Shown here: piece by piece, positions 24,850 through 64,000 of the stretch
Position numbering within the stretch: position 1 is the stretch's first letter
Layout: each line of letters starts with the position of its first letter
IMG/VR virus record: IMGVR_UViG_3300029305_011823
Source of the DNA: a virus
Taxonomy: Duplodnaviria > Caudoviricetes
Reading direction: 5' to 3' (one strand)
Length of the DNA: 64,000 nt
Position numbers and translations under genes: made by a program
The notes under the pieces: model-generated
Seen by the model: only the letters and a program-made list of their open reading frames with translations
The model's database searches: none
What the model was told of the DNA's origin: nothing

Positions 24850-24861
24850 GATAAAACAATG

Positions 24862-24958: not shown

Positions 24959-27900
24959 ATGAAGATTATATATAGAGGAAAAAGTATAGAAGGAAGATAT
25001 CAAAATGATATAATTGATCAAATATTATTTGATGAAAAAATTGACAGAATAACAAAAATAACTGTTAAAATTCCTTATGATAATTATTCACTAAAAGTAG
25101 TGTCTTCAACTGATCACATAACTGAGGATGATGCGATTATCAGTTGGGGAGACGGTAGTGGAAACTTTTTACAAATTTCTGAAGATAATATAGCTTCAAC
25201 GATAGATGAATCTGTGATTGGTCAAGAAAACGAAGATCCGACTGTGCATATATATAATAAAGCTGGTATTTATGACATAAGTGGACACTTCACATTCGGT
25301 AAAAGCTCTGCACCTACAGATAGTATGAAAGAGTGTCTTGTTGAAGTAAAAAACTTAACTGCCAAATCAGATAATTTAGGTGGTGCATTTAATGGTTGTG
25401 AAAACTTGAGAAAATTTAGCATACAAACACAATTATCACCAATTAATACTCGTTATATGTTTAATAATTGTGCAAATTTAATAAAAGCTGACGTTGCAAT
25501 GATAGACATGACAAATGTTACAGATGCTATGCGTATGTTCTCTAACTGTAATATGTTAACTACATTAGATGTAAGTAATTGGAATACTGGTAATATAAAG
25601 CACATTGGATGGATGTTTTGGCGATGCTATGAATTAACTACATTAGATGTAAGTAATTGGAATACTAGTAATGTAACTTCTATGGAAGCAGCATTCCACC
25701 ATTGTTATAAATTAGAAGCATTAGATGTGTCCAATTGGGATGTTGGTAAAGTTGAACATTTAGGTCACACATTCGCAAGATGTGAAAGTATATCAACATT
25801 AGACGTATCTAAATGGGATGCTAAAGTAGTTACTAATATGAATAGAACATTTTATAAATGTATTAATTTAACTTCATTAAATGTAAGTAAATTTGATACT
25901 AGTAATGTAACTACTTTCCAAGGAACGTTTGAAGAATGTACTAACCTGACAGTAATAGAAGGGATGATTAACTGGAATACTGCTAAAGTACAAAAAATGG
26001 GAAGTATGTTCAACGGTTGTGAATTATTACAAGATATAAGTACAGTTATAAATTTTGATACACAAAATGTAACTAATATGTCTTGCTTATTTAAAAATTG
26101 TAAAGCAATAACTTCTCTAGATTTATCTAATTTTAATACTGTTAATGTAACTGATTTATCTGGATTATTGGAAGGATGTTCAGGATTAACTAATGTCAAT
26201 ATTTCTGGATTAAATATGACTAAAAATAAAACAATTGCTAATATGTTCAAAGATTGTATCAATCTAGAAAGTATACAAGGTATAAGAGATTTAAATGTTT
26301 CTAATATAACAAACATGGACTATATGTTCTACGGATGTGAAAAATTAGCAACGTTAGACTTAAGTAACTGGGTTACTAGTGTTAAATTAACTAGTATGAA
26401 AGCTATGTTCTATGGATGTAAAGCTTTAACTAGTTTAAATGTTAGTGGATTTAATGTTAGTAATGTAACTGATATAGTTGGTATTGTGGATGACGTTGAC
26501 CATGGATTATTTGATAGTTGTAATGCTATTACTGAAATAATTGGGATAGATAGATGGCATACTGGTAATATAACTAATATGAGAAGTATGTTTGCTGGTT
26601 GTAATAATTTAACATCATTAGATGTAAGTAATTTTAATACTAGTAATGTAACTAATATGAGTCGTATGTTCACAAGTTGTAAATCATTAACTTCATTAGA
26701 TGTAAATGGATTTGACACTAGTAATGTAACTACTACAAGAGACATGTTCTATAACTGTCAATTATTAACTTCATTAGATGTAAGTAAATGGGATACTCGT
26801 AATTTTACTACATTATGGGGTATGTTTAATCAATGTTATGAATTAACTACATTAGATGTAAGTAAATGGGATACTAGTAATGTAACTAGTATGTGGTATA
26901 CATTTAATCAATGTTATAAATTAACTTCATTAGATGTAAGTAATTGGAATACTAGTAAAGTAACTAGTTTAGCTTTCACATTCCGTGATTGTAGAGTTAT
27001 AAAAGAATTAAAAGTAAGTGATTGGGATACTAGTCAAGTAACTGATATGAGATGTACATTTGCAACTTGTAGAGAGATAACTGAACTTGACCTACATAAA
27101 TGGAATACTAGTAAAGTAACTAATATGGATAGTTTTATTCCATATTGTACTAATTTAGTTAAATTAGATGTATCTGGTTGGGTTACTAGTAACGTAACTA
27201 ATATGTATGGTATGTTTATTAGTTGTATCAATCTACAAAAACTAGACCTAGGAACTTGGTCTGCTAGAAACGTTACTAATATGAAGCAAATGTTCTATAA
27301 CTGTCCAAGTCTTACTACATTAGGAGATACTACTTATTTTAATCCTGAAAAAGTAACTGATATGAACCAAATGTTCTATAACTGTGAAAAACTTGAAGAA
27401 ATTAGAGGTATTGGTAACTGGGTTACTGGTGAATTAACTGATATAGCTGCAATGTTTGCTAACTGTAAAGCTCTTAAATATTTAGACTTAGGTGGATTTA
27501 ATGTAAGCAAAGTTGTATATCCTTGTGCTAATATAAGTGGAATTGAGTATGGATTATTTAGAGATTGTAATAATATAGAATACATAAACGGCTTAGAAAA
27601 CTGGGAAACTAAAAATATGACTCAGATGCACTATATGTTCATGAGATGTCATAATTTAAAAAGACTTGATATAAGTAATTGGAACACTGCTAATGTAACT
27701 TATATGTATCATATGTTTGATGATTGTGAAAAAATGGAAGAGTTGATAATTGGAGAAAATTTTGATACTAGTAAAGTAACTAGTATGCAATATATGTTCT
27801 ATGATTGTAATCAGTTAACTTCATTAGATGTAAGTAATTGGAATACTAGTAATGTAATGTATATTGAAAATATGTTCTATAATTGTAATAGATTAACTTC

Positions 27901-30900: not shown

Positions 30901-33900
30901 TGGTACATCCATTTCAGTAGATGTTGATTATGTACCTGGAGATGAAAAAGCATTAATAAGTGTCGATTACTTGAATACTGAAAATTTAACTTCATGTAAA
31001 TTAATGTTTAAAAAATGTGCAAATCTTACAAACGTAAATACTAGTGGATGGAATACTAGTAATGTAACTGATATGTATAGTATGTTCTCATATTGTGATA
31101 AATTAACTTCATTAGATGTAAGTAATTTTGATACTAGCAATGTAACTAATATGCAATATATGTTCTATAATTGTAATAAATTAACTACGATAGATGTAAG
31201 TAATTTTGATACTAGTAACGTTGCATACTTAACTAGTATGTTCTCTAGTTGTCAATTATTAACTTCATTAGATGTAAGTGGATTTAATACTAGTAAAGTA
31301 ACTAATATGCATGGAATGTTTAACTTATGTAGATCGTTAACTACGATAGATGTAAGTAATTTTGATACTAGTAAAGTAACTGATATGGCTGGTATGTTTT
31401 ATAATTGTCAATCATTAACTTCATTAGATGTAAGTAATTGGGACACTAGTAAAGTAACTCAGATGCATAATATGTTCTATAATTGTAATAAATTAACTTC
31501 ATTAGATGTAAGTAATTGGGATGTTAGTAATGTAATTACTATACAAGGTATATTCCATCAATGTAAATCATTAACTTCATTAGATGTAAGTAATTGGGAT
31601 ACTAGTAAAGTAACTAGAATGGATTATATGTTTTTCTATTGTAATAAATTGAATGCTTTAGATGTAAGTAAATGGAATACTAGTAAAGTAGTTAATATGT
31701 GTGGTATGTTCCAAGATTGTTATGGCTTAACTTCATTAGATGTAAGTAATTGGGATACTAGTAAAGTAACTACTATGCATTGTATGTTTTTATCATGTAT
31801 AGGATTAACACAAATTGATTTAAGTAATTGGGATACTAGTAAAGTAACTAGTATGAGTGAAATGTTCCGTAATGTTTCAAATGTTAATAAATTAGATTGT
31901 GGTAATTTTGATATGTCGCAAGTCGATATTATCAATTCCATGTTTAAAGCAATGGCACGATTAAAAGTACTTGATTTAACACATGTTGAATTTACTGCAG
32001 ATGATTATCAAGAAATACTTCTTGGCACTAATAATCTAGAAGTATTAAAATGTGATAAGCCTTCTACTATACATAAATTGGTAGAGTTACTTCCAGATAG
32101 AAACGGACAAGAAAACCCAGGTAAATTAATAACTACTGTTCAAGATAGATTAAATCCTTATTGCTTTGAAGTGTTATTAGAAAAGAACTGGGAAATAACA
32201 TCTGAAGTTGGTCTATTAGTAGCTGATTATATATTCGACCCTGCTATACATAATAGTATGATACCTGTTATGAATGATGGTTATCTTGATGATTGTGTTA
32301 TAGAAGATGAGGTGATATTAAACTACGTAGAACCAACAGATGAAGTAGAAGTAGTAAATGAAAACGAAGGAATAATGACTTTAGAAGAAACTGAAGGAAG
32401 AATGGTTATAAGAAGAAAAATTTATAATCTTAAAGGAGAATCTCCAAGTAGTATTAGATTCGGTGCTGCTTATATGGAACAGAATTTATACACTGATGAA
32501 GTCTACCACTATCGTTTATCACTAATAGAAGTATTGTATATTGATATCAGTAACTGTACAGATATAACACGCCTATTTAATGTATGTAAAAATTTACGAA
32601 AAGTTGAAGGTATGTTAGTAACTAACAAAATAACTGCAATGTCATCAGTATTCTTTGCTTGTAAAAAATTAACTTCAATAGATTTAAGTAACTGGGATAC
32701 TAGAAATGTGACTACTATACAAGCTATGTTCTATCATTGTGATTCACTAACTTCATTAGATTTAAGTAATTGGGATGTTAGTAATGTAAGCGGTATGACT
32801 TGTGTATTTACATGGTGTTCAGGTTTACAATCATTAAATTTAAATAATTGGAATACTAGTAATGTCATTCATATGAATGGATTTTTACAGGGTTGTGCTT
32901 TATTAAGTAAATTAGATTTAAGTGGTTTTGATACTAGTAAAGTAACGACTATGAATAACATGCTTAATGGATGTAAATCTACATATATGGATTTATCCAA
33001 TTTTATAATCAATGATGATTGTGATATAACTTATATGATAGATTTTCAAAAATCAATCAAATATTTAAAACTAGACGACGCTGCTTCATTGGAAAAATTA
33101 CTTCCACAACTTCCAACTAGAGATGTTAATGACAAAGGACATATAGTAACTTATAATCCAGATGCTCTATCATCTACAGCTAAAACTACACTTACTAATA
33201 AAAACTGGGTAGTTCATTCAGTTGATGAATGTACAATTGCAGCTTATGGATTTGATAATACTGTATGCGAAGATGTAATGCCAATATTCAATGAAGATTA
33301 TGATGCTTCTGCGTTATCTATATCTGACCATGTTCACGGTGGATATTTTGTTCATAGAGATATCATGAACTTTGAAGGTAAACTACCATCAACAATTAAA
33401 TTCGGTGGAGATGAACCTGATGCTAGAACTAATGCATTAATGCAAATAGGTGATATTAACTTAACTGGAATAACTGATTATTCTGAAATGTTTAAAAACT
33501 GTACTAACTTAAATTATCTAAATATCTGTGTTGGAGAAAAAACTCCTACAAATGTCTCTCATATGTTTGAAGGATGTTCTAACTTAGAATTATTTGATAT
33601 TTATAGAATGGAATTTGACGAAATTACTTCATATGAAGGAATGTTCGCTGGATGTAATAAATTATGTAAAATAAGGGTAAGAGATATTCAAAATGAAGTA
33701 TTTATGAATATACTTAGAGATGAAAATAATAATTTTGCTGAAGTAAAAGAAATAGTAAGTAGTCGTGTACATGACTTAACTGAAGAAGAAAGAGGAGTAA
33801 TCGAAGGATTAGGATGGGGATTAAAAGGAATGATTGCTCATTATGCTTATGATGCTATGATAGCTAACGATTATATACCTGTATTTAATGATGAATTTAC

Positions 33901-37504: not shown

Positions 37505-37596
37505 TATTAATCTTTTATCTAAAAACAAATAGATAAGAGAAAAGGGCGTATAGAGATTTCTCTATACGCCTATTTAATATAGAAAGGAGAAAAAAT

Positions 37597-48546: not shown

Positions 48547-48552
48547 AACACT

Positions 48553-52900: not shown

Positions 52901-55900
52901 CTTTAAGAAAAATGGTTGCTCAATATAAATTTGACGCTGTTACTTATGAGAACTTAATACCTGAGTTCAATGCTGAGTTTACTGAATCTGATTATGTGAT
53001 TACTGACAGTGTAAGTGAATCTGTTATAGATAATATACAATGGATTGATGGTTATGCATTAACTGCAGATACTGGTGCACTTACTAATGATGATGAATCG
53101 CATGTATCTGATTTTATCGTAATTCAACCAAATGTTGCTTATAGAGTAAATCAACCAACATATGTTTATTGGTATGATGAAAATAAAGCATTCATAAATA
53201 ATGATTATGTGAGTGAAGAAGATTATAATGCAGGAAATGATAATATGGTATCTCCTGTAAATGCTAGATATGTAAGATTTACTCAATACAGTTATAGAGA
53301 AGGATTAGAAGTTGAAAGTAAAGTAGTAACTAGAACTATTGAAAGTGTAGCTGGTAAATTACCTACATTTATGAGATTTGGTGGTGTTACTGATCTTGTA
53401 GACGTATTCGATAGACCGTATAGTTTACTAGAAATATGCAATTTAAATACTGAAAATATAAATTCTATGCACTCTATGTTCCATTATTGTAAAAGATTGA
53501 CTAAAGTAAATAGTATAAATTGGAATACCAATAAAGTAACTAATATGTTTGATATGTTTAGTGAATGTCATTCATTATCTTCATTAGATGCAAGTAAATG
53601 GAATACTGGTAATGTAACTACTATGAGTCACATGTTCCATAAATGTCATTCAATATCTTCGATAGGAGACGTAAGTAATTGGAATACTGGTAAAGTAACT
53701 ACTATGTATTCTATGTTCAATAGTTGTTATTTATTAACTTCATTAGATGTAAGTAAATGGAATACTAGTAATGTAACTGATATGAGTAATATGTTTAGAT
53801 CTATGGTATCAATTACAACTTTAGATATAAGTAACTGGGACACTAGTAAAGTAACTAATATGGCTTATATGTTTGCTAATTGTAAATCATTAACTTCATT
53901 AGATGTAAGCAATTTTGATACTAGTAATGTAACTAATATGAATTTTATGTTCTATAATTGTAATAAATTAACTTCATTAGATGTGAGTAGATGGGTTACT
54001 AGTAATGTAAATGATATGCAAGGTGTGTTCCATAGTTGTAAATTATTAACTTCATTAGATGTAAGTAACTGGGATACTGGTAATGTAACTAGTATGTTTG
54101 AATTGTTCCAAAATTGTAATAATTTAACTTCATTAGATGTAAGTAATTGGGATACTAGTAATGTAACTGATATGAAGTATATGTTCAGATGTTGTTATAA
54201 TTTAACTTCATTAGATGTAAATAATTGGGATACTAGTAAAGTAACTGATATGGGTTATATGTTTGACGGATGTCATTCATTAACTTCATTAGATGTAAGT
54301 AATTGGGATACTGGTAATGTAGAATATATGGGTTATATGTTCAATGCTACAGATGGATATTCAATGAGTTTAACTTCATTAGATCTAAGTAAATGGGATA
54401 CTAGTAAAGTAACTAGTATGCCTAATATGTTTGAACAATGTGACAGTATAGAAAGACTTAATCTAAGTAATTGGGATACTAGTAAAGTATATATTATGCA
54501 ATATTTATTTAGTTATTGTAGATCATTAACTTCATTAGATATAAGTAATTGGAGTTTAGCTAATGTAAATTCAATGCCAGGTATGTTTTTAAATACTGAT
54601 AATTTAAGACTTATAAAATGTGATAATCCAGCTACAGTGAATATTATAGCTCAATACCTTATGGATAGAACTTCACAAGAAAAAGCTGGTATGATAGTAA
54701 TAGACGACACTGAAGGATTAGATACTACTGCACTTACTGCTAAAAACTGGACTGTTGTTCCTACATCAGCTCAACATATAGTTGCTGAGTATAAATTCAA
54801 TAAAGACTTAGCAGATTTAATGCCTGAATTAAATCCTGAGTTTGATGCTTATTTCGTTTATGATGAATATAACGATACTGAAGCAATTGAGACAACTGGA
54901 TATGAAACTATGATGTTATTTAATGCTGATAGTGAACCTGATGAGGACGGAGTAATAACTGCAGAAACTGAAGTAGAAGTTGTGAATACTGTGGAAGCTG
55001 GTAATATAGTTACTAGAAAAATAGTAAGTTATGGTGATGATTTACCTACATTGATGAGATTTGGTGGTTTAGGTGATAGTGCTGTTGAATATAATAGAGC
55101 AAAATCTCTAATAAGAATAGAACAACTAGACACTACAGGATTAACTACTATGCATCATATGTTTAGAATGTGTGAAAATGTAGTATATATTAATAATAAC
55201 AATTGGAATATTACTAATGTAACTACTATGCAAGGTGCTTTTTTAGGTTGCTATAATTTAACTTCATTAGATGTAAGTAATTGGGATACTAGTAGTGCAA
55301 CTGTTATGGGTGGTATGTTCCGTGATTGTAATGCATTAACTTCATTGGATGTAAGTAATTTTGATACTAGTAAAGTAACTGATATGAGTTATATGTTCTA
55401 TGACTGTTATTCATTAACTTCATTAGATGTAAGTAATTTTAATACTAGTAATGTAACTACTATGAATCGTATGTTCTATAAATGTAGTAATTTAACTTCA
55501 TTAGATTTAAGTAATTTTGATACTAGTAAAATAACTAATATGGCTTATATGTTCAATGCTTGTTATAATTTAACTTCATTAGATGTAAGTAAATGGCAAA
55601 CAGGAAGTCTAATATATATGAATAGTATGTTCAATGCTTGTCATAATTTAACTTCATTAGACTTAAGCAACTGGAATGTTAGTAATGTAACTGATATGCA
55701 AGGTGCATTTGGTGGTTGTAAATTATTAACTACATTAGGTGATATCAGTAATTGGAATGTTGGTAAAGTAACTAATGTATATGATATGTTTGGATATTGT
55801 AAGAGCCTAGTATCATTAGACTTAAGTAATTGGAATACTGACAGTTTAACTAATATGAGTCATTTTATATATGGTGCAGACAAACTAGAAGAAATATATT

Positions 55901-58900
55901 TAAGTGACTGGAATGTTAGTAAAGTATGGACTATGTTTAACGCATTTATGGACTGTTATAAATTAGCTACAATAGACGTAAGTAGTTGGGTTACTACTAA
56001 ATTAGAAAATACACAAGCTATGTTTGCAAAATGTAGTTCTTTAACATCATTAAATTTAAGCAACTGGGATGTTAGTAAAGTAACTAATATGTCAAATATG
56101 TTCAACAATTGTACTGCATTAACAACAGTGGGTGATTTAAGTGGATGGACTACTACTAACTTAGCAAACTTAGACAGAACATTTACAAATTGTAAAGCAT
56201 TAACTTCATTAGATATAAACAACTGGAATACTAGTAAAGTAACTCAGATGCAATATTTATTCAGTAATTGTGAAAGTTTAACTTCATTGAATTTAAATAA
56301 ATGGGATACTAGTAAAGTAACTGATATGACAGCAATGTTCCGTAATTGTTATTTATTGTCATCACTTGATATTAGTAACTTTAATACAATTAATGTTATG
56401 AGCTTGAGCTATATGTTCCATCAATGTAAATCACTAACATCGCTAAATGTAAGTAGTTTTGATACTTCTAATGTCAATAGAATGTATGCTACGTTCTGGG
56501 ACTGTCGATCATTAACTTCATTAGATGTAAGTAATTTTGATAATAGCAAAGTAACTGATATGGGAAGCTTTGTAGGTTCTTGTATAGCATTGAAATCACT
56601 TAACTTAGGTAATGTGGTTATCAATTCTTCTAATATAAACGATAATAGATTATTGCTAAATAACACAGATCTAGAAGAGTTATATGTTAATGATAAAGGA
56701 ACGTTAGATTACATATTACCGTTCTTACCTAATAGAACTGAAAAAGCTGTTGGTAAAATAGTTACTTCAATAAGAAGTCAAATACCACAAGAAACTCTTG
56801 CAGTTTTAACATCTAAAAACTGGGTAATTTATGATGTAGTTGCTCAATACTTATACGATTCTTCTCGTTATGCAAACTTATTACCTGAGTTCAATGCAGA
56901 GTATACTTCAGATAAATACGTTGTTACTGATGTTGACCGTAGTCAATCATTAAAAGTTACTAGATGGGAAGCTGGTATATTAGATGCGAATGGAGCAAAT
57001 ACTACAAGTACTGATTATCCAAATGCTATGAGAAGTGATTTTATAAAAATAAGAGCTGCTAAGTACACATTCAATATAGACTATTGTCAAGTATATTGGT
57101 ATGATGAAAATAAAAACTTAGTTGCTAATAGTGGTGTATATGGAACTAATAGTGGAATACAAAACGGAAAGGTATGTGAAGCACCTATAGGAGCTAGATA
57201 TTTAAGAATATATAGAGCTGTAGGTAAAACTGATTGTAGTATAGATTGTAGTTTAATAGAAAGAACTATTGAAAGTGTAAATGGTGAGTTACCAACTAAG
57301 ATGTCATTTGGTATAGCTGATGGTGATGATCGTTCACGAGCATTAATAGAATTAATACAAGCGAATGTTTCCGAACTTACTACAATGATTGCAATGTTTG
57401 ACACATGTGATCGTATGAGTTTTTGTAATACTGCAAATTGGGATACTAGTAAAGTAACTGACATGGCATGTATATTCTCAGCTTGTAATAATTTAACTTC
57501 ATTAGATGTAAGTAATTGGGATGTTAGTAACGTAACTGATATGAGACTTATGTTCTGTAGATGTTATATTTTATCTTCATTAGATGTAAGTAAATGGGAT
57601 ACTAGAAATGTAACTGATATGTATGCTATGTTCTATAATTGTAATAATTTAACTTCATTAGATGTAAGTAATTTTGATACTAGTAAAGTAACTAATATGA
57701 ATAGTATGTTCTATAATTGTAATAATTTAACTTCATTAGATGTAAGTAATTGGAATACTGAAAGCTTGTCAGGTACTGGAGCACAATATTTATTCTATGG
57801 ATGTAGTAATTTAACTTCATTGGATTTAAGTAATTGGAAAGTTGATAATCTAACATCATTCCATTGTATGTTCCACGGTTGCTCAAAATTATCAACTATA
57901 GGTAACGCGGGTAATTGGAAAACTGGTAAGTCACAATCTTTTGAGCAAATGTTCAATGGATGTGGTATATCATCATTAGATGTGTCTAATTGGACTACTG
58001 ATTACGTATTTAATATGTACGCAATGTTCCATGGATGCTCTAATTTGGCTACAATAAAAGGAATAGGTAAATGGAACGTGTCAAGAACTCATTCGCTACA
58101 TAATATGTTTACAAACTGTAGTTCATTATTATCATTAGATTTAAGTAATTGGAATCCAGCAGCAACTAATTTATTTGGATTTTTATATGGTTGTAATAAA
58201 TTAGTATCGCTTGATATAACTAATTGGGATATGTCAAATGTGAATAATTTTAATAGTTTTACATATAATTGCAGTGCTTTAAAATATGTTAAATGTAATA
58301 CTGTTAATAGTATAAATAAATTAATGGGAAAAGGTTTACCAACAAGACCAGCAAATGACTCAGGTTTAATAATCTGTAATGCAGATACTACAAACCTAGA
58401 TGTCGCAGCGTTAAATGCTAAAAACTGGAGAATTGCTACTGCAACTGATATAGTAACTGTTGCTCAATACAAATTCGATAAGTCTATATGTGAAGACTTT
58501 ATGCCTTATTTTAACGATGGTGCTAATTATCCTGTATTTGTAAGAGATGAAGTGGATGGAAATATTGTTACTAGAACGTTAGAAATAGTAAATGGTATGG
58601 AATTACCTAATGAGGTTACTTTTGGAATTAAAAGTACTAATGCTGATGACCGCACTAATAGGGAACAATCTTTATATGAAGTATTGTATGTAAATACAAA
58701 AAATATAAATAATATGCAATATATGTTCAATTATTGTCAATATTTGACTACAGTTAATACTGATGGATGGGATACTAGTAAAGTAATTAATATGAAATAT
58801 ATGTTTAGAGCTTGTAATCTATTAACTTCATTAGATGTAAGTAATTTTGATACTAAAAATGTAGGTAATATGCAAGGTATGTTTACTGCATGTAAAGTAA

Positions 58901-61900
58901 TAAATACATTAGATGTAAGTAAATGGGATACTAGTAATGTAACTAGAATGGATTCTATGTTCCGTGATTGTACTGATTTAACTACAATAAATCTAAGTAA
59001 TTTTAATACTGGTAAAGTAACTACTATGGATAGTATGTTCTATGGTTGTAGTAATTTATCATTATTAAACGTAAGTAATTTTAATACTGGTAAAGTAACT
59101 AATATGATTAATATGTTCTATAGTTGTAGTAATTTATCATCATTAGATTTAAGTAATTGGGATACTAGTAAAGTAGATAATATGGCTTATATGTTCAAAA
59201 ATTGTAATAAATTAACTTCATTAGATGTAAGTAAATTTAATACTAGTAATGTAATTAATATGTATTGTATGTTCGATTATTGTGAATCATTAACATCATT
59301 AGATGTAAGTAATTGGGATACTAGTAAAGTAATTAATATGAAATATATGTTTAGAGCTTGTAATCTATTAACTTCATTAGATGTAAGTAATTGGAATACT
59401 AGTAATGTAACTAGTATGGCTAATATGTTCTGTAATTGTAATAATTTAACTTCATTAGATGTAAGTGGTTTTGATACTAGTAAAGTGACTAGTTTGCATA
59501 GTATGTTCTGGGGTTGTCATAAATTAACAACAATAGATGTAAGTAATTGGGATACTAGTAATGTAACTAGTTTCTATGCTTTATTCCACCAATGTTATGT
59601 AATGACAACGCTAGATGTAAGTAACTTTGATACTAGTAAAGCAACAGAATTACATTTCTTTGCTTCATATAATGGTGCAACAATAATGAATCTTAATAAT
59701 ATAAAATTCAGAGAAGCTGATTATAGTATATTAGTATCAACAAAAGTTGAAAAAATGTATTTAAATAGTTTAGAAACATTAAATAAAGTATTGGAATATC
59801 TACCAGACAGAACAGGAAAAGAATCAGGTAAACTTGTTACTTCATTAAGAAACAAAATACCAGAAGAAACACTTGCAGCTTTAACTGCTAAAAACTGGGA
59901 AATAGTTGACATAGTTGCTCAGTACAGATTCGACGCTAACAAATATGAAAACTTATTACCTGAGTTCAATGCTGAGTTTACTGCTGATAAGTATAGAGTA
60001 ATAGATGATGTTCATGAGTATGTTGTTGATGATATACAATGGAAAATCGGTTATATAAATATGCAGGGTGAATTACATTCATCTACAGATACTATGATAA
60101 GTAGTTATATACCATGTGAAAATGCAGCAGTATATGTATTCGATACACCTATTAATGTTCATTGGTTTGATGGTGATAAAAAATATATTGGTATAAGTCA
60201 AAATTCAAATAACACATATCCTAGAGCAATACCAAAACCAATTAGTGCTAAATATTTCATAGTAAGTAGATTTATAACAACAGGAGAGGCTTTAAATATT
60301 TCATATAAACTAGTAAATAGAACTATAGAAAGTGTAAATGGAGATTTACCTACATTAATGAGATTTGGATTACACGCAAATTATGCATATACTCAATACA
60401 CAGATAGAGAAACGTCTTTATTGGAAGTTTATGCGTTAAATACAAATGAAATAACAAATATGTCTCAAATGTTTAGACAATGTAGAAATTTAGCACATAT
60501 TAGAACATCTGAAATAGATACTAGTAAAGTAACTGATATGCAATTTATGTTCCAAACATGTATGAAATTAAAATATGTTGATGTAAGTAATTGGGATACT
60601 AGTAAAGTAACTACTATGGATAATTTATTCCAAGATTGTCAATCGATAACTTCATTAGATGTAAGTAATTGGAATACTAGTAATGTAACTATAATGCAAA
60701 GTACGTTTGGTAGTTGTAAAAAATTAACTTCAATAGATGTAAGTGGATGGGATACTAGTAAAGTAACTAATATGCACAATATGTTTGGAATATGTCAATC
60801 ATTAACTTCATTAGATTTAAGTAATTTCGATACTAGTAAAGTAAATGATATGAATAATATGTTCTATAATTGTCAATCATTAACTTCATTAGATGTAAGT
60901 GGATGGGATACTAGTAGTTTAAGAGATATGGGTAATATGTTTAAAGATTGTAAAAAATTAACTTCAATAGATATAACTGGTTTTGATACTAGTAAAGTAA
61001 CTAATATGCATGCTATGTTTGCTTTCTGTGATTCATTAATAAACCTTAATATAAGTAATTTTAAATATGATAGTATAGATACAAGTGATTATATGAATTC
61101 AAGTAGTATGATCTCAAGTAATGGTGATACAAAATTAGTTTCATTAAATTTACCAAAAGCAGATTTACCTGATAGTATAGTTGGAATTATACTTAACAGA
61201 AATGGGCTTAAATATGTTAAATGTGAAAACAAAAATAACATTACTAAGATAATTTCACATCTTCCAGCAAGAACATCAGCAGACCCAGGTAAGATAATAA
61301 CTAAAGTTCCTATGTCACAATTTACTGAACTTGAAATACAAGCATTAGCTGATAAAAACTGGACTATAAGTAATGAAGCTTTACAAGTAGTTGCTAAGTA
61401 TAGATTTGCTAAAGATCTTTACAGAAGTTTAATACCTGCATTTAACTCAGGTTTCACAACTAATTACTTTGTAGATGATGAATATTTGAATACTGAAGAT
61501 TTAACTGATATGTATGGAAAAGATTATAACCAAGGATACACTATAACTGCAGAAAACATAGTTACTAGAACTATAAGTGTTCTTGAAGAGGAAGTATTAC
61601 CAACTAGAATTACATTCGGTACGAGTTGGTTTACTAATAGTACCTTAGTTGATGAAAGACCTAAAGCTATATCTTTACTAGAATCAATAGAAATTAATAC
61701 AAATAATTTATCAAGTATGGCTTATATGTATAGATTATGCTACAATGTTAAAAATATAAGTACTGAAGGCTGGGATACTAGTAAAGTAGTTGATATGAAA
61801 TGTGCATTTGCTAATTGTTATAATTTATTATCGATAGATGTAAGTAATTTCGATACTAGTAATGTATTGAATATGTATAGTATGTTCTATATTAATAGAA

Positions 61901-64000
61901 ACTTAGGTGGTAATCTTGACGTATCTAATTGGGATACTAGAAATGTAACTAATATGGAATTTATGTTCCAAAGTTGTGAGAAATTAACTTCATTAGATGT
62001 AAGTAATTTTGATACTAGTAATGTAACTAGAATGGATTACATGTTCTATAAATGTAATAATTTAACTTCATTAGATGTAAGTAATTTTGATACTAGTAAA
62101 GTGTTTGATATGCAATATATGTTTAATGGTTGTAATAATTTAACTTCATTAGATGTAAGTGGTTTTGATACTAGCAATGTAACTAATATGAATAATATGT
62201 TCTGTAATTGTAAATCATTAACTTCATTAGATGTAAGTAATTTCGATACTAGTAAAGTAACTACTATGAGTGGTATGTTCTTTGGTTGTAAATTATTAAC
62301 TTCATTAGATGTAAGTAATTTCGATACTGGCAATGTAACTAATATGAGTGGTATGTTCTATGATTGTAATCAGTTAACTTCATTGGATGTAAGCAATTGG
62401 AATACTAGTAATGTAACTAATATGTATGCATTATTCCAATTCTGCACACATTTAACTTCATTAGATTTAAGTAATTTTGATACTAGTAAAGTAACTAATA
62501 TTGGTATTATGTTTAACTCTTTACGTTTTATAGAAAATATAGATTTAAGTAATTGGGATACTAGTAATGTAACTAGTATGTGGAAATCATTATGTGGTTG
62601 TGCTGTTAAAAATCTAAATCTTAATAATATTATTATTTCACCATTAACTGATATTGATGGAATATTAGAAAGTGTTGACAGATTAGAAAAAATCTACATC
62701 AATATTCCTGAAACAGTGGATAGAATAGTTTCTCATCTTCCAGATAGAAGCTTAACAACTACTGGACGTATAATAATGCCTAATAAAGACCAAGTATCTG
62801 CAGAAACAGTTGCTTTATTGGCTGGTAAAAACTGGCACCTTGGAAACTTAATTGCTTCTTATAAATACGACAGTAATATTTGTGAGGACTTAATACCAGT
62901 GTTCAATGATGGATTTGGTACAGATAAATACGTTGTTGTGGATACAAATGATAGTCATAAGATAATAACAAGAAATATAGAAGATGTTGATGGTACAATG
63001 CCTACAATGGTTAGATTCGGTACTAATGTAAGTGGTGGTGCTGTAACTGATGCAACTAGTTCTCTACTTGAATTATTAGATATGAATACTCAAGAAATAA
63101 CATTCATGGAGGATATGTTTAGATCTTGTGTAAACTTAAAAGCTGTAAATACTAAACATTGGAACACAAGTAAAGTAACTGTAATCGGAAGTTTATTCTG
63201 TAAATGTGAAGTGTTAACTACAATAGATGTTAGTATGTTCGATACTAGTAATGTAGTTGATATGGAAAGAGTATTCGGATACTGTTACGACTTAGAGACA
63301 ATCATCGGTCTTGAAAAATGGGATACAAGTAAAGTAACTAATATGTATTATTTATTCTATCAATGTAATAAATTACGAAGTGTAGATTTAAGTAATATTG
63401 ATACTAGAAATATAGATAATTTAGCACAAACATTTGCTGCTTGCCATGCATTAACAAAATTAGATTTAAGTAATTTTGATACTAGTAAGGTAATCATTTT
63501 TAATAAAACATTCAATGCTTGTCGTGGATTAATAGAATTAGATTTAAGTAACTGGAATGCTGATAATGTAAATAATAGTGAATACTTCATTAACAATTGT
63601 CCAGAATTAACAACTGTAACAGTAAACACACTTTCAATGATGAACGTAGTTACAAATAGGTTGCCAGATAGAACTGGAAAAGAAGCAGGTACTGTTGTTT
63701 ATTATGGAATAGATGAAGCGGATATAGATACAGAAACATTACAAGCTAAAAACTGGAATTTAAGCTATGAACCAATATTAGCTAAATACATCTTCGATAG
63801 CAATGTATATGAAAACTTCTTACCAAAATTCAATGGTGAGTACTTAAGTGTAAACTATAAAGTTATAGATGATGTAAAAGCTGATGGTAGAGTAGTAAGA
63901 ACATTAAAATATGATAATGATAAGAGACCTACTTGGATACGTCTTGGTGATTATGATTCTACAAATGACGAATTACGTAAACAAGCATTATTGGATGTAT
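49981..64000 (+). CDS. giant BspA/DUF285-type LRR protein 3, >4673 aa, runs off the window (absent from ORF track)
   Basis: ATG at 49981 (MADIAKYKFNSD) after an AAAGGAG RBS; reading in frame shows ten linker domains with LRR blocks; the ORF track lists no + strand ORF here, consistent with no stop before the window end; late promoter at 49897-49908. Confidence 0.85.
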   Translation, partial: MADIAKYKFNSDTDVLPIFGDINFEYTYTDEIGSDGTITRTIVANSSPNSIKFTEKTGLISVEFIDMTEITSCAEMFKDCINLTYVDFNSVNTSKVTDMRSMFEGCSGFLSIDLSGLNTGNVLDMTNMFRGCSNVFSIDTSMINVSKATSLNSMFQGCANITGISLQGWNLSNVVNMGWMFDGCTNLLSVILKGVNIPNSATITDMFKDCIILNNVNMDNCSVEDINKMMRVLPERTDGRDYKLKTNLADVSGINTEDLEAKGWRLATYEIVLRYKFDKSIYANLIPEFNSNFIDYVVIDEVVEGNIVTRAIGHENLKPTKIYFGSPYTELNSQFPKSNSLLSIEHLDPSNLYDVRGMFRYCRNLTSIDVTNWVTTKITSLWDMFSLCTNLQEIIGLETWDTSNVDSLNATFHGCNNLSYIGDISGWQTGKVHDMAYLFSACYNLTSIDISNWDTSIVTTMYYMFNSCRSLVSLNVQGIDVGNVNNMANMFSQCNKLTTIDVSGWDTKNVTNMSFMFSKSIALIQIIGIENFITSKVTNMQDVFGGCLALRSLNLSNWDVSKVTHFNGTFNDCNSLTELNVSSWVTTSAQYMQAMFFGCHNLLSLDLSNFVTTNVLDMTQMFDRCWVITEIKGLENWNVGKVTSMRYLFSACHKVTELNVSNWNVEKVTNMEYMFYCCERLTLLDLNNWNPTRVQNMSNMFKFSSGLQSISSSNWNTDSLTTINSICYGCNNLTTLDVSNWNTSKVNDMNSAFHQCYNLTTLDVSNWDTSNVTNMNSLFSECNKVNGLDVSNWDVSKVEHLSGIFKDCYKLSSLDVSRWNTSSAIRTHMLFYGCNSLQSLDVSNFNTSKASLMRGMFGSLQSITMLDLSSIDTSSVTNDTFADYMYSMYNLKTLILGEKSLAKHIDTWDETFDYEHQITPFPVLERLVCPDEETIERISKYLPDRSTAVNPGVIVTNATISDEAMNTISGKNWSLRKMVAQYKFDAVTYENLIPEFNAEFTESDYVITDSVSESVIDNIQWIDGYALTADTGALTNDDESHVSDFIVIQPNVAYRVNQPTYVYWYDENKAFINNDYVSEEDYNAGNDNMVSPVNARYVRFTQYSYREGLEVESKVVTRTIESVAGKLPTFMRFGGVTDLVDVFDRPYSLLEICNLNTENINSMHSMFHYCKRLTKVNSINWNTNKVTNMFDMFSECHSLSSLDASKWNTGNVTTMSHMFHKCHSISSIGDVSNWNTGKVTTMYSMFNSCYLLTSLDVSKWNTSNVTDMSNMFRSMVSITTLDISNWDTSKVTNMAYMFANCKSLTSLDVSNFDTSNVTNMNFMFYNCNKLTSLDVSRWVTSNVNDMQGVFHSCKLLTSLDVSNWDTGNVTSMFELFQNCNNLTSLDVSNWDTSNVTDMKYMFRCCYNLTSLDVNNWDTSKVTDMGYMFDGCHSLTSLDVSNWDTGNVEYMGYMFNATDGYSMSLTSLDLSKWDTSKVTSMPNMFEQCDSIERLNLSNWDTSKVYIMQYLFSYCRSLTSLDISNWSLANVNSMPGMFLNTDNLRLIKCDNPATVNIIAQYLMDRTSQEKAGMIVIDDTEGLDTTALTAKNWTVVPTSAQHIVAEYKFNKDLADLMPELNPEFDAYFVYDEYNDTEAIETTGYETMMLFNADSEPDEDGVITAETEVEVVNTVEAGNIVTRKIVSYGDDLPTLMRFGGLGDSAVEYNRAKSLIRIEQLDTTGLTTMHHMFRMCENVVYINNNNWNITNVTTMQGAFLGCYNLTSLDVSNWDTSSATVMGGMFRDCNALTSLDVSNFDTSKVTDMSYMFYDCYSLTSLDVSNFNTSNVTTMNRMFYKCSNLTSLDLSNFDTSKITNMAYMFNACYNLTSLDVSKWQTGSLIYMNSMFNACHNLTSLDLSNWNVSNVTDMQGAFGGCKLLTTLGDISNWNVGKVTNVYDMFGYCKSLVSLDLSNWNTDSLTNMSHFIYGADKLEEIYLSDWNVSKVWTMFNAFMDCYKLATIDVSSWVTTKLENTQAMFAKCSSLTSLNLSNWDVSKVTNMSNMFNNCTALTTVGDLSGWTTTNLANLDRTFTNCKALTSLDINNWNTSKVTQMQYLFSNCESLTSLNLNKWDTSKVTDMTAMFRNCYLLSSLDISNFNTINVMSLSYMFHQCKSLTSLNVSSFDTSNVNRMYATFWDCRSLTSLDVSNFDNSKVTDMGSFVGSCIALKSLNLGNVVINSSNINDNRLLLNNTDLEELYVNDKGTLDYILPFLPNRTEKAVGKIVTSIRSQIPQETLAVLTSKNWVIYDVVAQYLYDSSRYANLLPEFNAEYTSDKYVVTDVDRSQSLKVTRWEAGILDANGANTTSTDYPNAMRSDFIKIRAAKYTFNIDYCQVYWYDENKNLVANSGVYGTNSGIQNGKVCEAPIGARYLRIYRAVGKTDCSIDCSLIERTIESVNGELPTKMSFGIADGDDRSRALIELIQANVSELTTMIAMFDTCDRMSFCNTANWDTSKVTDMACIFSACNNLTSLDVSNWDVSNVTDMRLMFCRCYILSSLDVSKWDTRNVTDMYAMFYNCNNLTSLDVSNFDTSKVTNMNSMFYNCNNLTSLDVSNWNTESLSGTGAQYLFYGCSNLTSLDLSNWKVDNLTSFHCMFHGCSKLSTIGNAGNWKTGKSQSFEQMFNGCGISSLDVSNWTTDYVFNMYAMFHGCSNLATIKGIGKWNVSRTHSLHNMFTNCSSLLSLDLSNWNPAATNLFGFLYGCNKLVSLDITNWDMSNVNNFNSFTYNCSALKYVKCNTVNSINKLMGKGLPTRPANDSGLIICNADTTNLDVAALNAKNWRIATATDIVTVAQYKFDKSICEDFMPYFNDGANYPVFVRDEVDGNIVTRTLEIVNGMELPNEVTFGIKSTNADDRTNREQSLYEVLYVNTKNINNMQYMFNYCQYLTTVNTDGWDTSKVINMKYMFRACNLLTSLDVSNFDTKNVGNMQGMFTACKVINTLDVSKWDTSNVTRMDSMFRDCTDLTTINLSNFNTGKVTTMDSMFYGCSNLSLLNVSNFNTGKVTNMINMFYSCSNLSSLDLSNWDTSKVDNMAYMFKNCNKLTSLDVSKFNTSNVINMYCMFDYCESLTSLDVSNWDTSKVINMKYMFRACNLLTSLDVSNWNTSNVTSMANMFCNCNNLTSLDVSGFDTSKVTSLHSMFWGCHKLTTIDVSNWDTSNVTSFYALFHQCYVMTTLDVSNFDTSKATELHFFASYNGATIMNLNNIKFREADYSILVSTKVEKMYLNSLETLNKVLEYLPDRTGKESGKLVTSLRNKIPEETLAALTAKNWEIVDIVAQYRFDANKYENLLPEFNAEFTADKYRVIDDVHEYVVDDIQWKIGYINMQGELHSSTDTMISSYIPCENAAVYVFDTPINVHWFDGDKKYIGISQNSNNTYPRAIPKPISAKYFIVSRFITTGEALNISYKLVNRTIESVNGDLPTLMRFGLHANYAYTQYTDRETSLLEVYALNTNEITNMSQMFRQCRNLAHIRTSEIDTSKVTDMQFMFQTCMKLKYVDVSNWDTSKVTTMDNLFQDCQSITSLDVSNWNTSNVTIMQSTFGSCKKLTSIDVSGWDTSKVTNMHNMFGICQSLTSLDLSNFDTSKVNDMNNMFYNCQSLTSLDVSGWDTSSLRDMGNMFKDCKKLTSIDITGFDTSKVTNMHAMFAFCDSLINLNISNFKYDSIDTSDYMNSSSMISSNGDTKLVSLNLPKADLPDSIVGIILNRNGLKYVKCENKNNITKIISHLPARTSADPGKIITKVPMSQFTELEIQALADKNWTISNEALQVVAKYRFAKDLYRSLIPAFNSGFTTNYFVDDEYLNTEDLTDMYGKDYNQGYTITAENIVTRTISVLEEEVLPTRITFGTSWFTNSTLVDERPKAISLLESIEINTNNLSSMAYMYRLCYNVKNISTEGWDTSKVVDMKCAFANCYNLLSIDVSNFDTSNVLNMYSMFYINRNLGGNLDVSNWDTRNVTNMEFMFQSCEKLTSLDVSNFDTSNVTRMDYMFYKCNNLTSLDVSNFDTSKVFDMQYMFNGCNNLTSLDVSGFDTSNVTNMNNMFCNCKSLTSLDVSNFDTSKVTTMSGMFFGCKLLTSLDVSNFDTGNVTNMSGMFYDCNQLTSLDVSNWNTSNVTNMYALFQFCTHLTSLDLSNFDTSKVTNIGIMFNSLRFIENIDLSNWDTSNVTSMWKSLCGCAVKNLNLNNIIISPLTDIDGILESVDRLEKIYINIPETVDRIVSHLPDRSLTTTGRIIMPNKDQVSAETVALLAGKNWHLGNLIASYKYDSNICEDLIPVFNDGFGTDKYVVVDTNDSHKIITRNIEDVDGTMPTMVRFGTNVSGGAVTDATSSLLELLDMNTQEITFMEDMFRSCVNLKAVNTKHWNTSKVTVIGSLFCKCEVLTTIDVSMFDTSNVVDMERVFGYCYDLETIIGLEKWDTSKVTNMYYLFYQCNKLRSVDLSNIDTRNIDNLAQTFAACHALTKLDLSNFDTSKVIIFNKTFNACRGLIELDLSNWNADNVNNSEYFINNCPELTTVTVNTLSMMNVVTNRLPDRTGKEAGTVVYYGIDEADIDTETLQAKNWNLSYEPILAKYIFDSNVYENFLPKFNGEYLSVNYKVIDDVKADGRVVRTLKYDNDKRPTWIRLGDYDSTNDELRKQALLDV

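What the first reader, a model, noticed from the sequence alone, without database searches (positions are those of the whole stretch)
24959..64000. Three giant paralogous LRR fibre genes (>12,500 aa in total) in a jumbo phage: a candidate combinatorial receptor-binding system
Seen: three ORFs of 4181, 3649 and >4673 aa made of 26-aa repeats with a fixed scaffold (LTSLDVSNWDTSNVT.M..MF..C) and hypervariable positions rich in Y/W/H/R/N. None has an evident signal peptide, and the two complete ones have no LPXTG or TM anchor. Each has a late promoter, they flank collagen and tail-fibre genes, and the complete ones end in tail-type domains. Known: BspA/DUF285 repeats are normally bacterial surface proteins. 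Inference: the phage uses them as very long virion fibres whose variable faces form a VLR-like library for host or mucosal binding.
Basis: partly seen in the sequence, partly recalled or inferred. Interest (0 to 1): 0.85.

Follow-up and report, generated by a model that had tools for sequence, protein, structure and literature searches.

The report
Giant LRR fibre proteins, jumbo phage
An uncultured giant bacteriophage carries three enormous late genes, each encoding a chain of leucine-rich-repeat rods with one fast-evolving face, which are probably long sticky fibres on the virus particle; this extends a phage adhesin type that has already been seen but whose function is untested.

Summary
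Three open frames of 4181, 3649 and >4677 aa contain 293 DUF285/PARCEL (BspA-type) 26-residue LRR units. The scaffold is fixed and six positions (16, 18, 19, 22, 23, 25) are hypervariable. There is no signal peptide, TM segment or LPXTG.

New here: each giant is a chain of 6 to at least 9 LRR solenoids. They are joined by a lineage-specific ~150-aa cap+head joint, which AF2 models at pLDDT 91. A and B end in a conserved domain like tail-fibre/BppU proteins, followed by CBM-like beta-sandwiches.

Every gene of the fibre cluster, including all three giants, is preceded by an AR9-type late-promoter motif (8 hits against 1.3 expected). Two IMG/VR relatives of 203-228 kb encode split multisubunit RNAP and keep the same three giants. 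Module number differs between relatives, and variable positions give omega ~1.6 against ~0.46 for the scaffold.

A virion-fibre role is likely but unproven. The "VLR-like combinatorial library" reading is only an analogy:
- The variable face is not the canonical concave sheet.
- No RT was found in the relative, and there is no sign of programmed assembly.
- Only four exact cassettes of 60 nt or more exist.

Giant DUF285 genes in jumbo phages (Vibrio pir03 ORF200) and LRR heads on Goslar fibre proteins are already on record. This scan noted DUF285 phage adhesins in at least 17 other genomes. I class it as a new variant of a known kind.

The parts
23097..23111 (+). late-promoter-like motif AAAACAA-N5-TAA before the collagen-like fibre gene
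   Evidence: fits the AR9 late consensus quoted in PMC7598289
23144..24208 (+). collagen-like tail-fibre gene (354 aa; the orthologue in the relative has 1431 aa)
   Evidence: Pfam Collagen E 1.4e-15; phrog_5073 tail fiber E 9e-34
24250..24849 (+). 199-aa gene of the fibre cluster with its own promoter motif at 24212-24226; function unknown
   Evidence: 64% identical to the G001 orthologue
24861..24895 (+). terminator-like hairpin between the 199-aa gene and giant A
24907..24921 (+). late-promoter-like motif before giant A
24959..37504 (+). giant A, 4181 aa. N-terminal 135-aa non-LRR domain, then six LRR runs of 66, 13, 6, 3, 10 and 8 units joined by cap+head joints, then a 526-aa C-terminal non-LRR region
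33209..34078 (+). island in giant A (aa 2751-3040, including the 3-unit module 4) that is 91-100% identical to the relative, while the flanks are ~50%
35924..37501 (+). C-terminal region of A. About 240 aa are shared with B (31% identity). The last 260 aa are 87-100% conserved in the relative
37522..37536 (+). late-promoter-like motif before giant B
37597..48546 (+). giant B, 3649 aa. It starts directly with a head domain, has six LRR runs of 10, 11, 7, 14, 19 and 13 units, then a 685-aa C-terminal region. The orthologue in the relative has only 2 runs (1551 aa)
40174..40476 (+). example of the ~100-aa domain inserted in the head of the long joints (2 of 5 joints in B, 4 of 8 in C); no family match
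46489..48543 (+). C-terminal region of B: last LRR cap, a tail-fibre/BppU-like domain, and CBM-like beta-sandwiches
   Evidence: phrog_6782 E 1e-13; C. perfringens phage PhiS63 tail fibre and CPS2 virion protein; AF2; BFVD top hit 'BppU domain protein' E 4.7e-18; CBM folds, Z 6-8
48597..48611 (+). late-promoter-like motif before the adaptor gene
48652..49887 (+). 411-aa fibre-type protein between B and C (coiled-coil N-terminus, Phage_tail_C motif)
   Evidence: Pfam PF24243 E 5e-8; 70% identical to the G001 orthologue
49895..49909 (+). late-promoter-like motif before giant C
49969..64000 (+). giant C, >4677 aa and open at the window end. It starts with a head domain and has at least nine LRR runs of 5, 21, 15, 19, 12, 13, 9, 12 and 7 units. 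The orthologue is 5058 aa with one more short run and no tail-type end
62605..63084 (+). example of the cap+head joint between two LRR solenoids (C aa 4213-4372)
   Evidence: alignment of 20 joints; AF2 model of C aa 4161-4502, pLDDT 90.8, pTM 0.79

Best explanation
The three genes are predicted late genes (from a shared promoter motif) and very probably structural genes of an uncultured jumbo phage of the multisubunit-RNAP, AR9/PBS1-like kind. Its host is most likely a low-GC Gram-positive bacterium.

SHOWN:
- Each protein is a chain of LRR solenoid segments (DUF285/PARCEL, BspA-type fold; 293 units of 26 aa in all). The segments are linked by a conserved ~150-aa joint.
- About half the joints of B and C carry an extra ~100-aa inserted domain.
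- A and B end in a ~240-aa domain shared with tail-fibre/BppU-type proteins of phages of Gram-positive bacteria, followed by CBM-like beta-sandwiches.
- In each LRR turn, positions 1-15, 17, 20, 21 and 24 form the conserved core and the conserved polar concave strand. Positions 16, 18, 19, 22, 23 and 25 differ in nearly every unit. These six positions are almost randomised between orthologues, with omega ~1.6.

INFERRED:
- The proteins sit on the virion as long fibres, tens of nm each if extended.
- The conserved C-terminal domains (80-100% identical between relatives) are the constant end that oligomerises or docks into the baseplate/fibre network.
- The N-terminal LRR chains project outward as multivalent adhesins. 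Their stacked variable stripe, rich in N, Y, H, Q and R, contacts surface polymers of the host or of material around it.
- Diversity arises in the germline: point substitution under diversifying selection, gain or loss of units and whole modules, and occasional copy-paste of cassettes. It does not arise by programmed rearrangement.
For: Phage and late context:
- Neighbours are PIF1- and DnaB-type helicases, a Cas4-like nuclease, an HNH endonuclease, an Amidase_3 endolysin, a virion structural protein, a collagen-like tail fibre and a Phage_tail_C protein.
- The helicase is closest to Staphylococcus jumbo phages and AR9/PBS1.
- The relatives G001/G002 (228/203 kb) have split RNAP beta subunits, topoisomerase II, and further fibre and tail genes just downstream of the giants.
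- The AR9-type late motif precedes all three giants and structural genes in both phages (PMC7598289).

Architecture:
- Unit HMM, runs and joints.
- AF2 joint model at pLDDT 90.8, with top Foldseek hits the BspA-type LRRs 4h09, 4gt6 and 4fs7.

Tail-type ends:
- phrog_6782 at E 1e-13.
- PhiS63 tail fibre and CPS2 virion protein.
- BFVD hits to a BppU domain protein (E 4.7e-18), a Herelleviridae minor structural/tail-fibre protein and an Enterococcus phage BppU.
- CBM-like folds, plus matches to chains in the Pa193 and phi812 baseplate structures at Z 6.7-7.7.
- The C-terminal family has 551 representatives. All seven checked lack names, and five of them carry N-terminal DUF285.

Selection:
- Replication genes are 83-90% identical between the two phages, but the giants only 48-60%.
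- Variable positions give omega 1.58 (bootstrap 1.36-1.87) against 0.46 for the scaffold. The result holds in modules with equal unit counts.
- The C-terminal islands are 80-100% conserved.

No export signals were found.

Precedents: DUF285 proteins were detected in purified virions of the algal giant virus AaV (PMC7507832). Goslar DUF7941 proteins with LRR/CBM domains have been proposed as a host-recognition fibre cloud (bioRxiv 10.64898/2026.04.21.720040).
Against: - There are no proteomic or imaging data, because the phage is uncultured.
- LRR solenoids are usually monomers, whereas fibres are usually trimers.
- The domain order is unusual. The repeat arrays are N-terminal and the tail-type domains C-terminal. 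B and C begin directly with a joint 'head', with no recognisable baseplate-attachment domain.
- The orthologue of C lacks any tail-type end.
- CBM-like C-terminal domains could themselves be the receptor-binding tip, which would reverse my orientation.
- The omega estimate rests on a single pairwise comparison, near saturation at variable sites (pN 0.57), with possible mis-pairing of repeats.
- I could not read model coordinates. The 'one stripe' statement follows from solenoid geometry and the DSSP string, not from measured solvent exposure.
- Assembly errors in 78-nt repeat arrays cannot be excluded; the longest exact repeat is 179 nt.
Confidence: 0.6

Rival explanations
1. The proteins are virion fibres but with the opposite logic. 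The CBM-like C-terminal domains are the receptor-binding tips. The LRR chains are mainly a long, stiff, segmented shaft or spacer. Their surface residues vary because they are weakly constrained or under pressure to avoid recognition, not because each unit binds something.
For: The C-terminal domains fold like carbohydrate-binding modules, and in most fibres the C-terminus is distal. The concave LRR face, which is the usual binding face, is invariant.
Against: The C-terminal domains are the most conserved parts between relatives (80-100%), whereas receptor-binding tips are normally the most variable. Omega at variable positions exceeds 1 (1.36-1.87), which simple relaxation does not give. Variable positions are enriched in Y, N, H and R, as in binding sites. 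The orthologue of giant C has no such tip.
Confidence: 0.17
2. The proteins are late but not virion-bound. They are released at lysis, or kept in the cell, as soluble multivalent binders. They might aggregate cells or debris, act as decoys, or organise assembly.
For: No attachment domain is recognisable at the N-termini of B and C. The orthologue of C has no tail-type domain. LRR proteins are typically monomeric binders.
Against: The genes lie inside a run of fibre genes on one strand and share its promoter motif. A and B have tail-fibre/BppU-like domains. The cost of ~39 kb of coding DNA in a packaged genome argues for a role in infection.
Confidence: 0.12
3. The proteins are packaged inside the virion and injected, like other giant phage proteins. 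Their LRR arrays bind and neutralise host proteins such as defence systems, in the manner of bacterial LRR effectors.
For: LRR domains of secreted bacterial effectors bind host proteins (general knowledge). Fast-evolving, diverse binding surfaces would suit an arms race. Jumbo phages do inject large proteins.
Against: The CBM-like and tail-fibre-like C-terminal domains point to the outside of the particle. The genes sit among fibre genes, not head or inner-body genes. Rigid solenoid chains of 4000 aa or more are poor candidates for passage through a tail.
Confidence: 0.06
4. The arrays are largely selfish or neutral expansions of PARCEL repeat DNA, carried by the phage without a specific function.
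For: PARCEL repeats spread by horizontal transfer and intragenomic shuffling (PMC2996958). Unit and module numbers vary between relatives.
Against: The frames stay open for 11-15 kb in AT-rich DNA in two diverged phages. Module order is conserved. Scaffold and non-LRR parts are under purifying selection, with omega 0.4-0.55. The genes have dedicated promoters.
Confidence: 0.05

Closest known systems
PARCEL / DUF285 (PF03382) repeat proteins (Roske et al. 2010, PMC2996958), including the BspA-type surface proteins of Bacillota
   Same: The repeat is the same: about 25-26 residues with conserved hydrophobic positions and highly variable hydrophilic ones. Nearly every unit is unique. Arrays vary in length, and there are signs of shuffling.
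   Different: These proteins are phage-encoded and lack any membrane or cell-wall targeting signal. They are 3.6-5 k aa long. The arrays are broken into 21 or more capped modules by a joint not found in the small bacterial proteins searched. Two of the three end in phage tail-type domains. Dyad symmetry of the coding DNA, a PARCEL hallmark, was not evident.
Giant DUF285 gene of Vibrio jumbo phages (vB_VhaM_pir03 ORF200, 19,254 bp, PMC7765460; C-ZP2022 CZP2022_115, 6137 aa)
   Same: It is a single giant ORF full of DUF285 units in a jumbo phage with multisubunit RNAP. Its function is unknown.
   Different: There is one gene rather than three. The units are of the FNQ type. It has no cap+head joints (linker HMM found none) and no tail-fibre-type C-terminus was noted. 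The host lineage is different.
Goslar gp161 and the DUF7941 'fibre cloud' proteins of Chimalliviridae (bioRxiv 10.64898/2026.04.21.720040)
   Same: These are jumbo-phage proteins that combine an anchoring module with LRR and/or carbohydrate-binding domains, and they have been proposed to act in host recognition.
   Different: In Goslar a short N-terminal DUF7941 anchor carries one small LRR head. Here there are chains of up to 66 units per run and 6 to at least 9 runs per protein. The conserved non-LRR domains are C-terminal, and the phage lineage is different (AR9-like rather than nucleus-forming). I did not test for DUF7941.
BppU-type baseplate and tail-fibre proteins of phages of Gram-positive bacteria (for example phrog_6782; C. 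perfringens PhiS63 gp17)
   Same: The C-terminal ~240-aa domain of A and B is homologous by sequence and predicted fold.
   Different: In these giants the domain follows thousands of residues of LRR modules. Which part of the BppU-type proteins it corresponds to, and whether it trimerises, are unknown.
Variable lymphocyte receptors of jawless vertebrates
   Same: Both use an LRR scaffold with hypervariable surface positions rich in Y and N, and both draw on many different cassettes.
   Different: VLR diversity is generated somatically by cassette insertion into an incomplete gene, and it lies on the concave beta-sheet. Here the genes are complete, are identical in two samples, and vary on another face. 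The resemblance is an analogy only.

Membership tests
DUF285 / PARCEL (PF03382) | Significant match to the family profile | tested here: met
   PF03382 at E 4.3e-158, 2.7e-60 and 4.7e-66 on three 1000-aa pieces
DUF285 / PARCEL (PF03382) | Tandem ~25-residue units with conserved hydrophobic positions and variable hydrophilic positions | tested here: met
   293 units; entropy profile; 231 of 237 signatures unique
DUF285 / PARCEL (PF03382) | Dyad symmetry (palindromy) of the repeat-coding DNA | tested here: inconclusive
   The best match of the 78-nt consensus to its own reverse complement is 34 of 78, with no clear palindrome. It is a crude test without a null model
BspA/TpLRR-type leucine-rich-repeat fold | Right-handed solenoid with one short beta-strand per unit, resembling solved BspA-type LRRs | tested here: met
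   AF2 pLDDT 90.8, with one EEE strand per 26 aa. Foldseek top hits are 4h09, 4gt6 and 4fs7 (prob 1.0 for 4h09 and 4fs7, 0.54 for 4gt6). TM is only ~0.3 because the model spans two solenoids and a joint
Phage tail fibre / BppU-like structural protein | Homology of a domain to known tail-fibre or baseplate proteins | tested here: met
   phrog_6782 at E 1e-13; PhiS63 tail fibre at E 5e-5; BFVD BppU domain protein at E 4.7e-18. This holds for A and B only. The orthologue of C lacks the domain
Phage tail fibre / BppU-like structural protein | Physical presence in the virion and attachment to the tail or baseplate | not testable with these tools
   The phage is uncultured.
Phage tail fibre / BppU-like structural protein | Trimeric assembly | not tested
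   No multimer prediction was available
VLR-type somatically assembled LRR receptors | Incomplete germline gene completed by copying from flanking cassette banks, with sequence differing between cells or genomes | tested here: not met
   The ORFs are intact. A 22-kb stretch of the relative's locus (3' part of giant 1, all of giant 2, the adaptor, 5' part of giant 3) is identical in two metagenomes. Only four exact repeats of 60 nt or more exist
Diversity-generating retroelement target | Nearby reverse transcriptase plus a template/variable repeat pair | tested here: not met
   No RVT_1 match in the 97%-complete relative G001. None of the window ORFs sent to Pfam (16 neighbours of 165 aa or more plus three 1000-aa pieces of the giants) matches an RT
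AR9/PBS1-like jumbo phage with multisubunit RNAPs | Split beta/beta' RNAP subunit genes and a genome over 200 kb | tested here: met
   Shown in the relative G001: phrog_2987 at 2e-62 and phrog_2962 at 1e-67, 227.5 kb. The window itself is syntenic with it at 60-90% protein identity
AR9/PBS1-like jumbo phage with multisubunit RNAPs | Late promoters of the form AACA-N6-TA/G | tested here: met
   8 oriented intergenic hits against 1.26 expected, and 13 in the relative. Activity, and uracil in the DNA, are untested
Goslar DUF7941 fibre-cloud family | N-terminal DUF7941 module | not tested
   No DUF7941 model was searched explicitly. No Pfam family other than LRR types matched the N-terminal pieces

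The most novel reading that the evidence does not exclude
The phage displays on its particle about 300 individually different LRR binding surfaces, spread over 21 or more rigid capped modules in three proteins. Each is diversified under positive selection on a non-canonical face of the solenoid. This would be a germline-encoded 'polyclonal' adhesin repertoire that lets one virion engage many variants of a host surface polymer, or several hosts or substrates. Whole modules would be added or lost as evolutionary units, and a new cap+head joint fold would make such chaining possible.
Probability: 0.3. Interest if true: 0.75.

Novelty: new variant of a known kind. Interest (0 to 1): 0.55.

Why it matters
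Host recognition by jumbo phages is poorly understood. Giant DUF285/PARCEL genes in them have been recorded only as curiosities.

This locus ties such genes to the virion fibre apparatus through three features: a shared late-promoter motif, their position in the gene cluster, and tail-fibre-type C-termini.

It also shows that the arrays are built from discrete capped modules. One stripe of six positions per turn evolves under apparent diversifying selection, while the classical LRR binding face stays constant.

If confirmed experimentally, this would give three things:
- A model for how very large phages obtain broad or adaptable adsorption.
- A natural, highly modular binding scaffold with a new joint domain.
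- A functional assignment for a repeat family (DUF285) that is still annotated 'unknown function' in bacteria, phages and giant viruses.

Tried and rejected
- **DGR mutagenesis:** no reverse transcriptase in the near-complete relative.
- **Programmed or VLR-like cassette assembly:** rejected. A 22-kb stretch of the relative's locus is identical in two metagenomes, and there are only four exact repeats of 60 nt or more.
- **Bacterial chromosome or surface protein:** rejected on the phage gene content and synteny with 203-228 kb viral contigs, and on the absence of export or anchor signals. IMG/VR labels the relatives 'provirus'. I saw no integrase or host genes in the 100 kb I read, but I did not examine the contig ends.
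- **Near-identical cultured phage:** megablast of 24.9 kb found none.
- **Tail sheath:** the Pfam Phage_sheath_1 search of the relative found nothing. This is uninformative for divergent jumbo phages.
- **Solved relatives by sequence:** none for the module, the joint profile or the C-terminal profile.
- **Joint in small proteins:** none found. By profile, only 18 long metagenomic DUF285 proteins carry it.
- **Related loci:** IMG/VR scans returned only the same two contigs. The GTDB genome scan found none.
- **ESM Atlas:** only weak leads (CBM_4_9, minor structural protein, BppU-like_C, Bacillota).
- **Unfinished:** the VIA wide search of the joint model had not finished, so the fold class of the cap+head joint is not assigned.
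Full report
**1. What is there.**
The window (28% GC) holds three long frames on the + strand: A at 24959-37504 (4181 aa), B at 37597-48546 (3649 aa), and C at 49969 to the window end (4677 aa, still open). Pfam assigns them to DUF285 (PF03382; E down to 4e-158) and BspA-type LRR_5. A unit HMM built from the sequence finds 106, 74 and 113 units, 293 in all, and the 78-nt DNA period is plain.

In 98 ungapped units, L1, F21 and C24 are invariant. Positions 1-15, 17 and 20 are conserved. Positions 16, 18, 19, 22, 23 and 25 carry 2.9-3.6 bits of entropy. Of 237 units, 231 have a unique six-residue signature. The variable positions are enriched in N, Y, H, Q and R but not in W. There is no LPXTG, no TM segment and no signal-like N-terminus.

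**2.
The units fall into discrete runs: six in A (66, 13, 6, 3, 10, 8 units), six in B, and at least nine in C. A conserved ~140-190-aa joint lies between runs. It has a C-cap (motif ...LP.RT....G.I.T......L.AKNW.I) followed directly by a 'head' (VA.YKFD...Y..LIP.FN....VTR.I....LPT..RFG....SLL.V) that leads into the next run.

Two of the five joints in B and four of the eight in C are ~260-280 aa long. Their extra ~100 aa are a domain inserted in the head, and it matches no Pfam or PDB sequence. B and C begin directly with a head. A begins with a 135-aa non-LRR domain.

AlphaFold2 on an alignment of 20 joints gives a confident model (pLDDT 90.8, pTM 0.79). It shows one short strand per LRR unit, a helix/strand cap and a beta-rich head. 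Its best PDB matches are BspA-type LRR proteins 4h09, 4gt6 and 4fs7.

In the DSSP string the strand covers unit positions 3-5 and a beta-bridge sits at position 16. The conserved T/S/D/S/N positions therefore line the classical concave sheet. The hypervariable positions lie on the following segment, on another side of the solenoid. Because equivalent positions stack in a solenoid, they form one continuous stripe. This last step is inferred from geometry; I had no access to coordinates.

**3. The ends.**
A and B share a ~240-aa domain just after their last LRR (31% identity, E 1e-29), followed by different distal parts.
- B's C-terminal region matches PHROG 6782 'tail fiber protein' (E 1e-13), the tail fibre of C. 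perfringens phage PhiS63, and a CPS2 virion protein.
- Its AF2 model (pLDDT 69.7 overall; good in residues 1-250, 275-440 and 590-650) best matches, among viral models, a 'BppU domain protein' (E 4.7e-18), a Herelleviridae minor structural/tail-fibre protein and an Enterococcus phage BppU protein.
- Among solved structures it matches carbohydrate-binding-module-type beta-sandwiches, and chains in the Pa193 and phi812 baseplate entries, at middling Z of 6-8.
- An exhaustive HMMER search finds 551 cluster representatives with this region. Most are 1000-3500 aa. Of the seven I scanned, five have N-terminal DUF285. The ten top representatives I looked up are all from metagenomes; only one member of their clusters carries a name, 'surface protein'.
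- The orthologue of C in the relative ends 120 aa after its last LRR, without such a domain.

**4. Context: a jumbo phage and predicted late genes.**
Upstream genes encode PIF1- and DnaB-type helicases, a phosphoesterase, a Cas4-like nuclease, a virion structural protein (phrog_21032), an HNH endonuclease, an Amidase_3 endolysin and a collagen-like tail fibre. A Phage_tail_C protein lies between B and C. The DnaB-type helicase is closest to those of Staphylococcus jumbo phages and Bacillus phages AR9/PBS1.

Two IMG/VR contigs (227.5 kb, 97% complete; and 202.6 kb) are syntenic. They carry giants of 4283, 1551 and 5058 aa in the same order. Just beyond them lie another 1401-aa collagen fibre, a tail protein, split RNAP beta subunits, topoisomerase II and a virion structural protein.

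The motif AAAACAA-N5-TAA fits the published AR9 late-promoter consensus A(-11)ACA-N6-T-A/G(+1) (PMC7598289). It occurs 8 times in the window against 1.26 expected. Every hit is intergenic and faces the next gene. Three hits lie 52-75 nt before the starts of A, B and C. In the relative it again precedes all three giants, the adaptor, both collagen fibres and several other genes. Terminator-like hairpins separate the genes. So each giant appears to be its own late transcription unit, co-regulated with structural genes.

**5. Evolution.**
- Between the window and the relative, replication proteins are 83-90% identical but the giants only 48-60%.
- Module order and approximate sizes are conserved in A and C. 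Unit numbers differ by one to three per module. B has six modules here and two in the relative.
- Aligned units are 13-23% identical at variable positions (chance 9%) and about 66% at scaffold positions.
- Nei-Gojobori omega is 1.58 (bootstrap 1.36-1.87; 1191 codons) at variable positions, against 0.46 at scaffold positions and about 0.5 in non-LRR parts. The contrast holds in modules with equal unit counts, where positional orthology is safe.
- Caveats: this is a single pair, variable sites are near saturation, and repeats may be mis-registered.
- Conserved islands (at least 80% identity) are the C-terminal domains of A and B, and one internal stretch of A (aa 2751-3040) that includes an odd three-unit module conserved even at its 'variable' positions.
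- Recent copy-paste is rare. There are four exact repeats of 60 nt or more: 179 nt between B and C, 159 nt within A, 126 nt between two heads of B, and 79 nt within C. This agrees with notes made earlier in this scan.
- The relative has no reverse transcriptase. A 22-kb stretch of the relative's locus (the 3' part of giant 1, all of giant 2, the adaptor, and the 5' part of giant 3) is identical in two metagenomes.

**6. Reading.**
The best-supported reading (confidence 0.6) is that these are virion fibres or adhesins of a jumbo phage. The conserved C-terminal tail-type domains would be the constant, docking or oligomerising end. The LRR chains would be exposed, multivalent, fast-evolving binders.

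The orientation is an inference from the conservation pattern. The reverse orientation, with a CBM tip as the binder and the LRR chain as a shaft, is the main rival. Soluble late binders, injected LRR effectors and selfish repeat expansion are less likely, for the reasons given in the rival entries.

The 'VLR-like combinatorial library' is an analogy, not a mechanism. The diversity is germline-encoded, it lies on a non-canonical face, and there is no sign of programmed assembly.

**7. What is known already.**
- DUF285/PARCEL repeats were described in 2010, with the same conserved/variable logic (PMC2996958).
- tblastn finds them in 123 phage records, including Butyrivibrio, Sphingomonas PAU, Aeromonas, Serratia, Vibrio, Lak and cyanophages.
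- The Vibrio jumbo phage pir03 paper reports a 19,254-bp PARCEL ORF of unknown function (PMC7765460). Its relative C-ZP2022 has a 6137-aa CDS with 104 units but none of the joints seen here.
- DUF285 proteins were found in purified particles of the algal giant virus AaV (PMC7507832).
- A 2026 preprint proposes Goslar DUF7941 proteins with LRR/CBM domains as a host-recognition fibre cloud.
- This scan has noted DUF285-type phage adhesins in at least 17 other genomes, including one other report of three giant LRR genes.

The kind is therefore known, though functionally untested. What is new here:
- The scale: three genes, over 12,500 aa, 293 units.
- The capped-module chain, with an undescribed joint restricted to 18 metagenomic proteins in the profile search.
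- The inserted joint domain.
- The link to tail-fibre C-termini and to AR9-type late promoters.
- Quantitative evidence for diversifying selection on one stripe.

**8. Limits.**
No whole genome is held for the window. The host assignment (a low-GC Gram-positive bacterium) rests only on the GC content, on the phages with the nearest helicase and tail-fibre matches, and on weak Atlas leads to Bacillota. The wide structural search of the joint model did not finish.

Noticed in passing
window 15645-15659(-), 19204-19218(-), 23097, 24212, 24907, 37522, 48597, 49895 (+): A conserved intergenic motif, AAAACAA-N5-TAA, matches the AR9 late-promoter consensus. It lies 37-75 nt upstream of eight genes. 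This suggests that the phage uses an AR9-type non-virion RNAP, and possibly uracil-containing DNA.
   Followed up: partly
window 33209-34078 (giant A aa 2751-3040): This internal stretch, with an atypical three-unit LRR module, is 91-100% identical to the relative, while neighbouring modules are ~50%. Even its 'variable' positions are unchanged. It may be an internal docking site.
   Followed up: partly
window 21291-21929(-) and 22121-22618(-): An HNH/NUMOD4 homing-type endonuclease gene lies directly downstream of a 165-aa Amidase_3 endolysin ORF. The relative's endolysin ORF is 293 aa and has no blastp match to the HNH gene nearby. The endolysin here may therefore be shortened or split by a mobile endonuclease insertion.
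   Followed up: no
window 23144-24208 versus G001 91709-96004: The collagen-like tail-fibre gene is 354 aa here but 1431 aa in the relative. This is a large length change in the Gly-X-Y shaft, and the C-terminal domains are conserved.
   Followed up: no
window 562-1551(-) and 19301-20005(+): Two small genes are only 29% and 25% identical to their syntenic counterparts in the relative, among neighbours that are 60-90% identical. They have no family matches. They are fast-evolving accessory genes.
   Followed up: no
window 40174-40476, 52975-53298 and other long joints: A ~100-aa domain is inserted in the head of six joints (motif W..G...RS.YI.V.P..Y.F....V.WYDENK.FI...AP..A.YLRI). It has no Pfam or PDB sequence match. 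It matches weakly the low-confidence part of B's C-terminal region (E 0.005) and PHROG 19519 'neck protein' (E 4e-4).
   Followed up: partly
L001/L002 (IMG/VR UViG 3300029305_012046 and 3300031555_010858): IMG/VR classes both relatives as 'provirus', although they encode split multisubunit RNAPs typical of lytic jumbo phages. The label may be an artefact of bacterial-looking DUF285 genes. The two records are identical over the 22 kb compared.
   Followed up: no
P0166, P0170 (metagenomic proteins carrying the joint): Two relatives that carry the same cap+head joint and DUF285 arrays also have a SASA (PF03629, sialate O-acetylesterase-like) domain. This hints that some family members act enzymatically on surface glycans.
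   Followed up: no
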